Part shown: one piece after another, positions 4,479-7,967 of the stretch
Position numbering within the stretch: the first letter of the stretch is position 1
Layout: each line of letters opens with the position of its first letter
The notes under the pieces: model-generated
Seen by the model: only the letters and a program-made list of their open reading frames with translations
Told to the model about the DNA's origin: nothing
Databases searched by the model: none
Source of the DNA: a virus
Lineage: Duplodnaviria > Caudoviricetes
Virus record (IMG/VR): IMGVR_UViG_3300009037_000003
Span: 32,001-96,000 of that record
Strand: one strand, 5' to 3'
Length of the DNA stretch: 64,000 nucleotides
Position numbers and translations under genes: made by a program

Positions 4479-4745
4479 ATGACAGAAAAGAGTAATGTGC
4501 GGAAAAGGGCAACTGTAGGTAAACATTACGTCGTGCTAGAATGCTCTGTCGACAATGGGATTTACGACAAAATAGCGTTGGCCACGAGAAAGGATGGTAA
4601 ATTTGCGATACTGGCTTATGCGATGAACGATCCGTATGACGATGATCCGGAAGTCATTGCCGTAATTGACGAATTGGATGCTATAACGATAAACGAATGG
4701 TTGACAAAAAGAATTAGCGATGGTAAGAACAGGAGAGTGCGATGA
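4479..4745 (+). CDS. hypothetical protein
   Basis: ATG at 4479 after AAGGA, just past the previous stop; ORF track start at 4320 is likely too long. Confidence 0.5.
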   Translation: MTEKSNVRKRATVGKHYVVLECSVDNGIYDKIALATRKDGKFAILAYAMNDPYDDDPEVIAVIDELDAITINEWLTKRISDGKNRRVR

Positions 4746-5056
4746 GATCTGACTGCGAAATAACCTACGAGTCAATTCCGATTCCATACGGACAACTCCC
4801 AATCGGAAATAAGAATGATGTTGAGCCTGGCGACATAGTAACGTGGGAAAATGCGGGCAGCATGCCTATAGGCAGAGTACTTGGTAGAGTAAGAGCCCAT
4901 GACCTTGAAGTTCCATATATTTGTGTAGTCGCCATGATGTCGGACGGAATGACTTGCGAGCGATGGATTCCCGTGCGAAGCTTAACGTCTTGTTCACAAT
5001 GTCCCGATAAGCGACTGTTATGGCTTTTCGGTCCAAAATTTATAATACTCCAATAA
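4742..5056 (+). CDS. hypothetical protein (possible SH3-like fold)
   Basis: ATGA overlap with upstream gene; VEPGDIVTW...GRVLG pattern. Confidence 0.5.
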   Translation: MRSDCEITYESIPIPYGQLPIGNKNDVEPGDIVTWENAGSMPIGRVLGRVRAHDLEVPYICVVAMMSDGMTCERWIPVRSLTSCSQCPDKRLLWLFGPKFIILQ

Positions 5057-5122
5057 ATGTAAGCAGGCGATCTTTCGACCTGACAACGGACCAAATAATC
5101 GCTTCAATCTCAGGAGATTAAA

Positions 5123-5395
5123 ATGTCAGACAGCCCACTTTTCCTCAATCAGGGACAAATACGTGGAGAACCGTTAATTTACTGGGAACGGGATCTGGAC
5201 GGAACAATTTGTAGCTTATTTGTCACCGTCGGTTTGGTTTGTCCGTGGTGCAAAGGACGTGGATACAAAGCGGAAGTTATACCATCGTTGGACGACGTTA
5301 ATTCTGCCAGGACTATTAATTGCCCATGTCTTCGATGCAAAGAAAGTGGAAAACTTAGCATCGATTATCGGGCTATGGCTAGTATTTTTGGATAA
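5123..5395 (+). CDS. small protein with DnaJ-type zinc finger, paralogue of 4253..4474
   Basis: AGGAG RBS; LVCPWCKGRG and CLRCKESG. Confidence 0.6.
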   Translation: MSDSPLFLNQGQIRGEPLIYWERDLDGTICSLFVTVGLVCPWCKGRGYKAEVIPSLDDVNSARTINCPCLRCKESGKLSIDYRAMASIFG

Positions 5396-5498
5396 ATGAT
5401 GATTAACCTAAGTTGTTGTAATCAAAGGACTTGGAAATATTGCATGACGAGAAAAGTTATGTGTCACTAGATCGGTTTGCGATTGTCTAAGATTTGTG

Positions 5499-5526
5499 GA
5501 AAAACTGACTATCGGTTTGGTATTAT
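5499..5526 (+). promoter_or_regulatory. putative promoter gAAAAA-N16-TATTAT
   Basis: Same architecture as sites at 17706, 26406, 37095 and 44926. Confidence 0.5.
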
Positions 5527-5532
5527 GTTAAT

Positions 5533-5985
5533 AATGGGGGGTCTATTCATGTTGCGAGTGCGACATGGACCTAGTTTACTGCTCGATTTCTAGGAAAAAC
5601 TTGTTGATGATTACCCAAAAAGTTCGGCGCGACACCGAATCGCCTTGCATCTCAGATTCGGTTCCCCCTGTCGCTAATCCAGAAATACCGGGTTTCGATA
5701 CACCCGGAAAATCCCGAACGCAGCACCGCTGCGTTTCCAGGCAACGATCCACCCGGCGTCGACCTGGTCTGTATTCCATACGCTACAATAGCCAGCTTGG
5801 GGAGCCAAGCAAGGGAGCGCTGAGACGGCCAGCTTCTGGACAAAACGACGAGATGCGGCAGTTTTTTAATCGCGGACAAAGCGGACTGCTGGAGAGGGTC
5901 GAAAGTATCTGCCTATTAAATATATAAGCTACCCAGATGACTCACCCGGAGAAGAGTTGTATGGAGAAGAATAGGCCGGGGTGCG
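5533..5985 (+). ncRNA. putative structured non-coding RNA or long structured leader, family unknown
   Basis: GC-rich intergenic stretch with stems 5548-55/5560-67 and 5629-41/5655-74, plus 5678-84/5834-40 enclosing 5688-93/5702-07, 5717-24/5728-35, 5737-41/5763-67 and 5795-5800/5805-10. Confidence 0.5.
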
Positions 5986-6001
5986 CGCAGGAGTAAATAG
6001 C

Positions 6002-6562
6002 ATGATGACATACGTAACAGACAGCATGAAAACGGAAATGGCTTCGCATGTTTTAATTCCCGTAGAGGTATCAGACAATTTTAAGCTATACACTTTGAAT
6101 AGACCTGGAACAATAGTTTATTCTGTCTATATCGCTGAGTTTGCCAGAAGATTATGTCTTTCTGGCGATATATGTTTGGGCGGCAATGATCGCGGAATCG
6201 TGTCGTCTCCTGGATACGGGGTTGCGTGGTTTTCTGGGCACTTAGCAGAATCTTATCTGTGTCAAAAATTTCTGAGAGAAGAGTGGCAATGGGACGTAGC
6301 CGTGAGGGGGATTAAACAGCATATCGAGGACGATCGAAACGATGGCGAAGGCTTGTATCTCGAAAACGAACATAAACTAGATGAATTAATCAATAATCAT
6401 TTTTGGGAGTACGATGAACCGAATCAAGCCGAATATTATGAATATATGACAAGCATTGGACACGACGGTTGTGAGCTACCTGGGTTCGACTATCCACGCA
6501 TGCATGCTGGGTGGTTGTGCGCAATTCAACAACGGTTTAGCGAGTTATTTAAACATGGATAA
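6002..6562 (+). CDS. hypothetical phage protein
   Basis: AGGAG RBS at 5989, ATG 6002; overlaps next gene. Confidence 0.6.
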   Translation: MMTYVTDSMKTEMASHVLIPVEVSDNFKLYTLNRPGTIVYSVYIAEFARRLCLSGDICLGGNDRGIVSSPGYGVAWFSGHLAESYLCQKFLREEWQWDVAVRGIKQHIEDDRNDGEGLYLENEHKLDELINNHFWEYDEPNQAEYYEYMTSIGHDGCELPGFDYPRMHAGWLCAIQQRFSELFKHG

Positions 6563-7967
6563 GTTGAAACAGATATTCTCAGAAAAGGGAATTGTTGTTA
6601 GAAAGGGATTAGATATTGGCAAACTTAGTAGGTTACCGAATGCTGTTGTAGAAACACTTTACGAGACACTCGAAAGTAACGACCATGCGGTCAAAGTGGA
6701 GCAAATAGAGTCAATCGTTCAACACTGTTGTTTCTCAAGTGCGCAGAAAGAGTTAGTTAAAAGTATCGTGAGGGAGCGAGGAGAAGCTACTCTTCTTGAC
6801 AGATTGGTATGCAATTTTGACGAGCAACGAGACAACTACTTCGGACGACTCCAGTGTTTGCCAGAATTGGATTTGCGGGTCGAGCAACCTATAATTAACA
6901 CATACGGGAAATATCTTCTGACGACAACAGGTTTGTGGGGTAGCGCCAGATTGACTTACGAGGATATGAAATTCAAAAACAAATACTATCCCTACAACGT
7001 CCTGGAGTTCGTACCACTGCAAACAACAGATATGAGCCTAGACGAGTTTTGTGTCAGAAGAAAAGAGTTCGACACAAATGAATGGATCGATATCCTGATG
7101 GCTACGATGGGCCTATCTACGACAACGATGACTACTGAGCAGAAAATGGTCCATCTACTGCGACTTGTTCCTTATGTCGAAGAAAATGTCAATTTAATCG
7201 AACTTGGTCCGTGTTCGACAGGAAAGACATTCTTATTTCAGAATATTTCGCCACACGGTTTTGTTATTACGGGAAGCCAAACGACAGTGGCTGCTCTTTT
7301 TTACAATAAGCTTAAGAACGAAGTCGGTCCGATCGGGACACGAGATGTGGTCGTGTTCGACGAGGTTTGCGCCGTCGACAATTGGGGTGATCCACAGCTT
7401 TTCAACATGCTTAAATGCTACATGAACGACAAGCAGTTTAGTCGCGGGCATGCCGAAGTAAAATCGTCTTGCTCGCTTTACTTCGTTGGCAACGTCGATT
7501 GCGATACTAAAACCAATTCTTTGTCGCCAAGGGTGAGGAATCTGTTCTCAAAATTCCCGGAAACAATTAATAGAGATGTAGCATTTTTTGACAGGATAAA
7601 CGGAATAGTACCTGGCTGGAAACTATCTCCACTGTCTGCAAACAGCTTTGCGTCCGGTTACGGCTTTAGTAGCAACTACTTTTCTGGCGTCATGCAGCAA
7701 ATGCGATCTGTTGACGTTTCACGTCATTTTGACGGTATTGATTTTGGGAATATGCCCCAACGAACAAAAAAGTCAATTATGAAAATAGCATGCGGATTGT
7801 TAAAGCTTATTTATCCTGATCGATTAAAAGCTGAAAGATCTTCCGACGGCATACAGGTACTGCTAGAAATAGGTCTTTCTTGTCGCAAGTTGTTGATCGA
7901 ACAATTAGCTAGTATTTCGCCGAATGAATTTCGGTCCATGGATTTTACATATAGGAAGGAAACATAA
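6555..7967 (+). CDS. brxL: BrxL-like AAA+ ATPase lacking the C-terminal Lon protease domain
   Basis: N-terminal IVVRKGL; RLVPYVEENVNLIELGPCSTGKT; VVVFDEV; FFDRINGIVPGWKL; ends GLLKLIYPD...EQL...EFRSMDFTY where the Lon domain would start. Confidence 0.8.
   Translation: MDKLKQIFSEKGIVVRKGLDIGKLSRLPNAVVETLYETLESNDHAVKVEQIESIVQHCCFSSAQKELVKSIVRERGEATLLDRLVCNFDEQRDNYFGRLQCLPELDLRVEQPIINTYGKYLLTTTGLWGSARLTYEDMKFKNKYYPYNVLEFVPLQTTDMSLDEFCVRRKEFDTNEWIDILMATMGLSTTTMTTEQKMVHLLRLVPYVEENVNLIELGPCSTGKTFLFQNISPHGFVITGSQTTVAALFYNKLKNEVGPIGTRDVVVFDEVCAVDNWGDPQLFNMLKCYMNDKQFSRGHAEVKSSCSLYFVGNVDCDTKTNSLSPRVRNLFSKFPETINRDVAFFDRINGIVPGWKLSPLSANSFASGYGFSSNYFSGVMQQMRSVDVSRHFDGIDFGNMPQRTKKSIMKIACGLLKLIYPDRLKAERSSDGIQVLLEIGLSCRKLLIEQLASISPNEFRSMDFTYRKET

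What the first reader, a model, noticed from the sequence alone, without database searches (positions are those of the whole stretch)
5499..5990. About 400-450 nt highly structured non-coding element behind its own promoter: candidate novel phage ncRNA
Seen: the largest gap without a credible gene, visibly GC-richer than the rest. It contains a hairpin 5548-5567 and a 13 bp helix (5629-41 with 5655-61 plus 5669-74) carrying a TTCCCCC bulge that could pseudoknot with GGGGGG (5536-41) or GGGGA (5799-5803). A 7 bp closing helix TCCAGAA/TTCTGGA (5678/5834) encloses four hairpins, three of them with perfect 6-8 bp stems. Further 3' pairings are GGCAG/CTGCC and CACCCGG/CCGGGGTG. The promoter motif used elsewhere in the window sits immediately upstream (5499-5526). 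I could not match it to tRNA, tmRNA, RNase P or intron consensus. Inference: an undescribed large structured RNA, or a regulatory leader of the brxL-thyX-clpP operon; a replication origin is an alternative.
Basis: partly seen in the sequence, partly recalled or inferred. Interest (0 to 1): 0.78.

Follow-up and report, generated by a model that had tools for sequence, protein, structure and literature searches.

The report
Orphan GC-rich leader before phage operon
A 606-base gene-free stretch in a large phage, with a GC-rich core that folds somewhat better than chance, is real, but it has no relatives beyond near-identical strains, so it is best read as a long untranslated leader of the next operon rather than a proven new RNA class.

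Summary
The sequence features are there. A 606-nt gap (5396-6001) lies between a 90-aa gene and a 186-aa gene that opens a BrxL-like/ThyX/ClpP/sigma operon. It has an AT-rich, promoter-like 5' part and a 54-58% GC core in a 44% GC genome, and the listed hairpins are at the stated coordinates.

"Highly structured" holds only in part:
- The whole stretch folds at z -1.6.
- The core 5620-5845 reaches z -3.25 on the + strand, a value about 1% of random windows of this genome reach.

No family or relative was found. Rfam, Pfam and a 1.84-billion-protein search gave nothing. The 120-aa ORF looks like chance: no codon periodicity, no RBS, and 10% of shuffles give as long a frame.

Only 97%-identical strain variants carry the element, so covariation cannot be tested. 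Ten whole genomes and 36 loci of related phages lack it by BLAST, and those searched with a covariance model lack it too.

Related phages do have a long, AT-rich intergenic region at the same place, conserved among themselves. Only its last motif, TGCGCGC plus the Shine-Dalgarno sequence, is shared with the window.

Best reading (0.4): a lineage-specific GC-rich expansion of this operon's 5' leader. An independent new ncRNA remains possible (about 0.15). The scan had already noted this stretch from another window.

The parts
5396..5620 (+). AT-rich 5' part of the gap (37% GC). It holds two copies of ATCGGTTTG(C/G)NATT, at 5471-5484 and 5511-5524.
5497..5526 (+). Sigma-70-like promoter candidate: TGGAAA, 18 nt, TATTAT, with an extended -10 TG. 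The inferred start is near the G6 run at 5533-5541.
   Evidence: It is the only promoter-like site in 5000-6500 and is not shown to recur elsewhere.
5548..5567 (+). 8-bp hairpin (CATGTTGC / GCGACATG) that buries the ATG of the chance ORF.
5565..5927 (+). 120-codon open frame, judged not to be a gene.
   Evidence: Not called on the Logan contig L010.
5570..5594 (+). Hairpin CCTAG / CTAGG with TTTACT in its loop. It resembles by eye the relatives' hairpin whose loop reads TGATTTAYT.
   Evidence: The resemblance is not statistically supported.
5629..5674 (+). 13-bp helix with a 13-nt loop and a 7-nt C-rich bulge.
   Evidence: z -2.08 for 5620-5680.
5678..5840 (+). GC-rich multi-hairpin domain closed by the 7-bp helix TCCAGAA / TTCTGGA. 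It has 55 predicted pairs, only 2 of them G-U.
   Evidence: z -3.3 on the + strand and -1.3 on the - strand.
5841..5981 (+). Purine-rich 3' part of the leader. It has a T6 run at 5863-5868 with no preceding terminator hairpin, and the hairpin CACCCGG / CCGGGGTG.
   Evidence: z -1.45.
5961..5996 (+). 11-codon upstream ORF (MEKNRPGCAQE) with its own GGAG nine bases upstream. Its stop lies 5 nt before the main ATG.
   Evidence: Read from the sequence. Unchanged in L010. It may be chance.
5982..5993 (+). TGCGCGC followed by AGGAG (Shine-Dalgarno). This is the only motif of the gap shared with distant relatives, where GGCAGTGCGCGCGGAGG sits in the same place.
   Evidence: TGCGCGC occurs only 5 times on the + strand of the 140-kb genome.
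6002..6562 (+). 186-aa gene of unknown family, first gene after the leader. BrxL-like, ThyX, ClpP and sigma genes follow it.

Best explanation
The stretch is the long untranslated leader, about 470 nt, of the operon that starts at 6002 (186-aa gene, BrxL-like ATPase, ThyX, ClpP, sigma factor).

Related phages keep a 370-520-nt regulatory, non-coding region at this position. In the window's lineage, the part between the promoter region and the conserved TGCGCGC-SD motif has been replaced or expanded by about 300 nt of GC-rich sequence that is unique to this lineage and folds into a compact set of hairpins.

Inferred mechanism: transcription starts at or just upstream of 5533 and runs through the element, since no + strand terminator is present. 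The folded 5' domain then acts in cis on the operon mRNA. Stabilising it against 5'-end-dependent decay, or setting translation of the first gene through the 3' hairpin, the short upstream ORF and the SD region, are the most likely roles.

Shown: it is non-coding, GC-rich, single-copy, locally well folding, placed in a conserved regulatory gap, and kept in both known haplotypes.

Inferred: that it is transcribed from this promoter, and any cis function.
For: - Position. The large gap upstream of the BrxL operon recurs in relatives: L007 372 nt, L008 393 nt, and two contigs seen only as gene maps, 371 and 520 nt. Its sequence is conserved among at least 18 related loci (nhmmer E 1e-7 to 1e-102).
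- Shared 3' end. TGCGCGC directly before the SD and ATG is found in the window and in 12 or more relatives, including 30% GC phages where this word occurs nowhere else in 11 kb.
- Promoter and read-through. A promoter-like site lies at 5497-5526, and there is no + strand terminator before 6002.
- Folding. The core folds better than shuffles on the + strand (z -3.25) and less so on the - strand (z -1.34).
- Not a gene.
- Retention. The element is intact in the 97% variant L010/L011, while the neighbouring 90-aa gene there lost its first 164 nt.
- Divergence. It differs at 6 of 606 positions (1.0%), against 7.2% at third codon positions.
- Packing. The gene calls leave few other gaps, so a 0.6-kb spacer is unlikely to be pure filler.
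Against: - There is no transcript evidence.
- The promoter is a single consensus match, and such matches are no more frequent here than in shuffles.
- The folding signal is modest, the window was chosen after the fact, and a GC-regressed scan sees nothing.
- The low divergence extends into adjoining coding DNA (4742-5056: 1% at third positions), and 6% of all 606-nt windows are as similar. It may therefore reflect a recent recombination tract.
- The profile of the relatives' leader does not detect the window, so homology beyond the 12-nt 3' motif rests on resemblance by eye.
- Only 2 of 55 predicted pairs are G-U, so the pairing pattern does not single out the + strand RNA.
Confidence: 0.4

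Rival explanations
1. It is a stand-alone, trans-acting structured RNA of a new class, made from the promoter at 5497-5526 and released by processing rather than by a terminator.
For: - GC enrichment of a non-coding stretch in a lower-GC genome is a classic sign of structured RNA.
- The domain is compact, with MFE equal to centroid and z -3.25.
- There is no Rfam match.
- It is kept in both haplotypes.
Against: - No intrinsic terminator on the + strand.
- No homolog in 10 related whole genomes or 36 loci, by BLAST or in those searched with a covariance model, or in three public collections by pattern scan.
- No covariation data exist.
- The significance is about 1% per window before correcting for the choice of window.
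Confidence: 0.15
2. It is functionless or selfish DNA: a recently captured piece of foreign, GC-richer DNA, or the decayed remnant of a gene, sitting in a tolerant intergenic region.
For: - It is lineage-specific and single-copy, and absent from all more distant relatives.
- The equivalent gap in relatives is AT-rich.
- The region is mosaic. The 186-aa gene next to it has relatives only on 56-72% GC contigs with different neighbours. The upstream gene is partly deleted in L010.
- Other relatives carry unrelated GC-enriched non-coding inserts near the same place: L028 3459-3710 and L036 2297-2665.
Against: - No protein remnant in any frame, and no periodicity.
- No inverted or direct terminal repeats, and no second copy.
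- Divergence is lower than at synonymous sites.
- Folding is above shuffles.
- The genome is otherwise tightly packed.
Confidence: 0.25
3. It is a DNA-level element, such as a transcription-primed replication origin or a packaging or recombination site.
For: - A promoter is followed by G and C runs (G6 at 5536-5541, C5 at 5664-5668) and a purine-rich 3' part, which could favour R-loops.
- Almost all predicted pairs are Watson-Crick, so the DNA could form the same hairpins.
- There are two ATCGGTTTG repeats.
Against: - No iteron array here.
- The cumulative GC skew turns at about 48,980, not here.
- No integrase gene in the record.
- A much better origin or packaging candidate lies at the contig ends: a 23-nt unit repeated 7.6 times, plus dispersed TTATCGGAC copies.
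Confidence: 0.07
4. It encodes an orphan 120-aa protein (5565-5927).
For: - The frame is open for 130 codons.
- IMG called it as a gene.
- Two of the three strain differences inside it are synonymous (read against the frame).
Against: - No relative among 1.84 billion representatives, and no Pfam or PHROG match.
- No SD, and the ATG is buried in an 8-bp hairpin.
- No codon periodicity (p 0.47).
- 10% of shuffles give a frame as long.
- The Logan gene calls omit it.
- The predicted product is Arg/Ser/Pro-rich, as is typical of random GC-rich translation.
Confidence: 0.05

Closest known systems
Long structured 5' leaders of phage and bacterial operons, such as 5' stabiliser stem-loops and the processive-antitermination RNAs put of HK022 and EAR (from my own knowledge of these systems)
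   Same: It sits directly behind a promoter-like site, runs into a long co-directional operon without a terminator, and is made of several stable hairpins.
   Different: There is no sequence or covariance-model match to any Rfam leader, including EAR. It is far longer than put (about 65 nt) or EAR (about 120 nt). No function has been tested.
The conserved non-coding region of about 370 nt upstream of the zinc-ribbon gene and BrxL operon in related 120-180-kb phages
   Same: Same genomic position, same orientation, and the same terminal TGCGCGC-SD motif. Hairpins that look alike by eye: TTTACT in a loop, and CCGAATC / GATTCGG arms.
   Different: The relatives' region is AT-rich, and its nhmmer profile does not hit the window. 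RNAalifold predicts no consensus structure for it. The window's about 300-nt GC-rich core has no counterpart there, and the zinc-ribbon gene is absent from the window's genome.
Large phage- and prophage-associated structured RNAs: GOLLD, ROOL (Rfam families)
   Same: Several hundred nucleotides, phage-borne, non-coding, multi-hairpin.
   Different: No Rfam match even at E up to 10. There is no family of homologs, so no conserved architecture can be shown.
Origin transcripts: ColE1 RNA II and the T4 oriF/oriG type (from my own knowledge)
   Same: A promoter followed by a structured transcript carrying G and C runs.
   Different: No replication genes adjoin it, there are no iterons here, and the skew does not turn here. 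Repeat arrays lie elsewhere in the genome.

Membership tests
Any Rfam 15 family (riboswitches, T-box, leaders, ribozymes, introns, GOLLD/ROOL, tmRNA, RNase P, 6S) | Covariance-model score at or near the family's gathering threshold | tested here: not met
   With permissive filters and E up to 10, only four chance-level hits turned up, all snoRNA or Mu-gpT-DE, and none inside the GC-rich core (one overlaps 5499-5510). ARAGORN found no tRNA or tmRNA.
Independent small or large ncRNA gene | Its own promoter | tested here: inconclusive
   One sigma-70-like consensus match at 5497-5526. Such matches are no more frequent here than in shuffles.
Independent small or large ncRNA gene | A defined 3' end (intrinsic terminator) on the same strand | tested here: not met
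   No + strand terminator-like site lies between 5527 and 6001. The T6 run at 5863 lacks a preceding hairpin.
Independent small or large ncRNA gene | Conserved structure supported by covariation in homologs | not testable with these tools
   The only other haplotype (L010/L011) differs at 6 positions. The three in or next to the core (5600, 5675, 5817) are not paired in the local folds.
Protein-coding gene | Homologs, RBS, codon periodicity | tested here: not met
Conserved leader of the BrxL-operon phage group | Position directly upstream of the first gene of the BrxL/ThyX/ClpP/sigma module | tested here: met
Conserved leader of the BrxL-operon phage group | Terminal motif GTGCGCGC followed by GGAG and ATG | tested here: met
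   Window 5981-6004, and 12 or more relatives.
Conserved leader of the BrxL-operon phage group | Sequence match to the profile of the whole region (blocks A to D) | tested here: not met
   nhmmer finds 18 related loci, six of them outside the training set, but not the window or L010.
MITE or other non-autonomous mobile element | Terminal inverted repeats, target-site duplication, several copies | tested here: not met
   single copy in 140 kb, no terminal repeats.
Retron / DGR / attP | A reverse transcriptase or integrase gene in the genome | tested here: not met
   No PF00078 or PF00589 match in the 140-kb record, which is 84% complete.

The most novel reading that the evidence does not exclude
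The GC-rich core (about 5620-5845, perhaps up to 5990) is a functional structured RNA domain of a kind not yet described. It would be unique to one phage lineage and grafted into a conserved operon leader, acting in cis or in trans on expression of the BrxL-like/ThyX/ClpP/sigma module.
Probability: 0.15. Interest if true: 0.6.

Novelty: new member of a known kind. Interest (0 to 1): 0.3.

Why it matters
If the core is a functional RNA, it would show a phage lineage gaining a new structured domain inside a conserved regulatory leader. That gives a small, testable case of how RNA elements arise.

As the evidence stands, it is an orphan sequence with a modest folding signal and no way to test covariation, so its value is limited.

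The by-product may be more useful: a non-coding region of about 370 nt conserved across many 120-180-kb phages, ending in an invariant GTGCGCGC-SD motif upstream of a zinc-ribbon gene and a BrxL-like ATPase. That region has many homologs and can be studied.

Tried and rejected
**Known families and coding checks**
- Rfam at E up to 10 and ARAGORN: nothing.
- Protein readings: Pfam and PHROGs of the ORF and of seven other frame pieces; phmmer of the ORF against 1.84 billion representatives (itself only); word search with the 86-aa minus-strand frame (nothing).
- ECF-type promoter idea (GTMAC, 17 nt, GTCT, as in the relatives' block B; window 5463-5488): 13 matches in the genome against 18 expected, so no support.

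**Searches for homologous DNA**
- GenBank phages by blastn and megablast: nothing.
- An exact 24-mer scan of viral contigs: nothing.
- Six degenerate 24-nt probes, via the search for related loci with the ORF translation, in viral, metagenome and genome collections: no confirmed match.
- blastn and tblastx against contigs carrying relatives of the 186-aa gene: nothing. Those genes have only short gaps upstream (about 37 nt in L003 and L006, about 205 nt in L002).
- blastn in 36 loci and 10 whole genomes of BrxL-operon phages: nothing.
- Covariance model R1 of 5676-5842 in five of those genomes and in 37 loci: nothing. The model does find itself.
- Self-BLAST in the genome: single copy.

- Loci from assemblies are not held as genomes.
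- The first whole-genome folding scan timed out.
- nhmmer of the relatives' profile against the gap alone returned nothing.
- Two literature searches gave no description of this phage group. They showed only that DUF1257 and DUF2997 are discussed for cyanobacteria.

Full report
**Context.** The window is bases 32001-96000 of a 139,974-bp IMG/VR virus record with 44% GC. Around the finding, all genes run on the + strand. A 90-aa gene ends at 5395. The next credible gene starts at ATG 6002, with AGGAG at 5989-5993. It encodes a 186-aa protein of no known family. It is followed by a BrxL-like ATPase that lacks the Lon protease domain, then ThyX, ClpP and a small sigma factor. The gap is therefore 606 nt (5396-6001). 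Gene calls on near-identical contigs leave it empty as well.

**The observation.**
- GC rises from 0.37 at 5300-5600 to 0.54-0.58 at 5600-5900.
- A sigma-70-like site with an extended -10 lies at 5497-5526. I could not confirm that this motif recurs elsewhere in the window.

**Is it more structured than chance?**
- Over the full length, only weakly: z -1.63 on the + strand and -0.89 on the - strand.
- The core 5620-5845 does better. It has z -3.25, none of 200 shuffles folds as well, and the MFE equals the centroid. The 150-nt domain 5685-5834 has z -3.32 on the + strand and -1.34 on the - strand.
- As a calibration, 100 random 150-nt windows of this genome gave mean z -0.28 and sd 0.99, with 1% at or below -3. 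Since the sub-window was chosen after inspection, the signal is suggestive rather than strong.
- A regression of folding energy on GC over the whole genome shows nothing unusual here.
- Only 2 of the 55 predicted pairs are G-U, so the pairs themselves do not point to one strand.

**Is it coding?** The 120-aa ORF at 5565-5927 looks like a chance frame.
- It has no SD, and its ATG lies inside an 8-bp hairpin.
- It has no Pfam or PHROG match.
- It has no relative among 1.84 billion cluster representatives other than itself.
- No other frame matches Pfam or the large protein collection.
- GC by codon phase is flat (p 0.47).
- 10% of composition-matched shuffles give an open frame of 130 codons or more.

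I therefore treat the stretch as non-coding.

**Known RNA families.** A permissive Rfam 15 scan of 5000-6500 gave only chance-level hits to snoRNA and Mu-gpT-DE models, none inside the GC-rich core. ARAGORN found nothing in the window.

**Relatives of the element.** None was found at the DNA level in any search.
- GenBank phages.
- Pattern scans of viral, metagenome and genome collections.
- The rest of its own genome.

The 186-aa gene has relatives at 49-64% identity, but they lie on 56-72% GC contigs with different neighbours and only short gaps upstream (about 37 nt in L003 and L006, about 205 nt in L002). The element does not travel with that gene.

Cluster look-ups then gave three near-identical contigs.
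- L012 is identical to the window.
- L010 and L011 are about 97% identical and carry the element.
- Over 12 kb, L010 differs from the window at 7.2% of third codon positions and at 1.3-1.4% of first and second positions.
- The gap differs at 6 of 606 positions, and at 3 of 591 between 5337 and 5927.

This looks like constraint, but the adjoining gene 4742-5056 is equally similar (1% at third positions), and 6% of all 606-nt windows are as similar. A recent recombination tract explains it as well. The three core differences (5600, 5675, 5817) fall at positions not paired in the local folds, which is not significant. In L010 a 152-nt deletion and a 1-nt insertion have destroyed the upstream 90-aa gene, while the element is intact.

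**The wider phage group.** BrxL-like proteins at 32-42% identity mark a group of 120-181-kb phages that share the BrxL/ThyX/ClpP/sigma module.
- In five relatives the gene maps show a non-coding gap of 370-520 nt upstream of a small zinc-ribbon gene that precedes BrxL. One of them shows only 147 nt.
- This region is conserved at the nucleotide level. A profile built from 12 loci finds it in 18 loci, at E from 1e-7 to 1e-102.
- It is AT-rich, and RNAalifold predicts no consensus structure for it. In 9 of 15 sequences, though, a hairpin with varying stems presents the conserved TGATTTAYT motif in its loop.
- It ends in GGCAGTGCGCGCGGAGG directly before the ATG.

The window keeps this ending (GGGGTGCGCGCAGGAG at 5978-5993). 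TGCGCGC occurs only five times on the + strand of its 140-kb genome, and in the 30-37% GC relatives L007 and L008 it occurs nowhere else on the + strand of the locus. I take this as real positional homology of the 3' end of the gap.

Beyond that, the profile does not detect the window. The resemblances I saw by eye are leads only: TTTGCGATT at 5474, the GTCTA and TTTACT hairpin at 5541-5594, and the CCGAATC / GATTCGG arms at 5635-5661.

The GC-rich core has no counterpart in any of the following:
- 36 related loci;
- 10 whole related genomes, eight of them at least 96% complete, by BLAST;
- five of those genomes and 37 loci searched with a covariance model of 5676-5842, a model that recovers itself.

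The zinc-ribbon gene is absent from the window's genome. Two other relatives carry their own unrelated GC-enriched non-coding stretches upstream of BrxL.

**Interpretation.** The gap is the window's version of a regulatory, non-coding region that this phage group keeps in front of the BrxL operon. Its promoter-bearing 5' part is AT-rich and its extreme 3' motif is conserved. Between them lies about 300 nt of lineage-specific, GC-rich, hairpin-forming sequence.

There is no + strand terminator, so a transcript from 5533 or from upstream genes would carry the element as a 5' leader of the operon. I put 0.4 on a cis-acting leader. Stabilising the mRNA, or controlling translation of the first gene, are the likeliest roles. 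An 11-codon upstream ORF at 5961-5996 and the hairpin at 5943-5983 sit right at the SD.

The other readings, with my estimates:
- A captured, functionless insert: 0.25.
- An independent new ncRNA: 0.15.
- A DNA-level role: 0.07.
- An orphan protein: 0.05.

The origin or packaging reading is weakened by three results. The skew turns elsewhere. The record has no integrase or reverse transcriptase gene. The contig ends hold a much more origin-like or pac-like region: a 23-nt unit repeated 7.6 times, dispersed TTATCGGAC copies, and a fold of z -4.25.

**Verdict.** The "novel large structured RNA" reading is neither excluded nor supported by any comparative evidence. It adds no independent evidence.

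Noticed in passing
L007:4356-4726, L008:4307-4698, L030:2513-2881, L023:3370-3728 and 14 further loci (L013, L015-L019, L022, L024-L028, L033, L041, L043): A non-coding region of about 370 nt upstream of a zinc-ribbon gene (MECxxC...) and the BrxL-like gene is conserved at the nucleotide level across many 120-180-kb phages with 30-50% GC. Near-invariant blocks are GTCT(A/T)GC, TGATTTAYT (often in a hairpin loop with varying stems), AATCGNAG, GAATCGAAGATTC and GGCAGTGCGCGCGGAGG. It has no Rfam family, and RNAalifold finds no consensus fold on the MAFFT alignment.
   Followed up: partly
window 5982-5993: TGCGCGC directly before the Shine-Dalgarno sequence is the only part of the gap shared with distant relatives. 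This GC-only palindromic word is kept even in 30% GC phages. It may be a binding site for a regulator or a processing signal.
   Followed up: partly
window 5135-5286 and 5042/5043, compared with L010: The 97% variant L010/L011 lacks 152 nt, which removes the start and first 55 codons of the 90-aa gene 5123-5395. It also has a 1-nt insertion near the end of gene 4742-5056. The upstream genes are therefore dispensable, while the non-coding element is kept.
   Followed up: partly
window 6002-6562; L002, L003, L006: The 186-aa protein of unknown family has relatives (49-64% identity) only on 56-72% GC contigs, each with different neighbours. It looks like a mobile accessory gene that replaced the zinc-ribbon gene found at this place in related phages.
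   Followed up: partly
genome G000:C1:1-2200 and 139500-139974 (outside the window; L050, L051): The contig starts with a 23-nt unit repeated 7.6 times (CCGGTTATCGGACCTTGCCGCGT). Dispersed TTATCGGAC copies sit at both contig ends. A GC-rich stretch of about 1.9 kb has no ORF longer than 128 aa and no significant Pfam match, folds strongly (z -4.25 at 560-859), and has no Rfam or tRNA hit. It is a candidate packaging or origin region.
   Followed up: partly
window 5396-5470: A 24-codon Cys-rich ORF (MMINLSCCNQRTWKYCMTRKVMCH) starts at the TAAATG overlap with the stop of the 90-aa gene. It has no family match.
   Followed up: no
window 6141-6168: A + strand terminator-like hairpin (10 pairs) with a T-rich tail lies inside the 186-aa coding region.
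   Followed up: no
L028:3459-3710 and L036:2297-2665: Two related phages carry their own GC-enriched non-coding stretches upstream of the BrxL-like gene (48% against 35%, and 36% against 27%). They are unrelated in sequence to the window's element and to each other.
   Followed up: partly
window 6555-7967 and relatives P0011-P0026: The phage BrxL-like proteins are short forms of 470-490 aa (BrxL_N plus ATPase, without the Lon protease domain). They are syntenic with ThyX, ClpP and a sigma factor, and in some relatives with a tyrosine recombinase between ThyX and ClpP.
   Followed up: no
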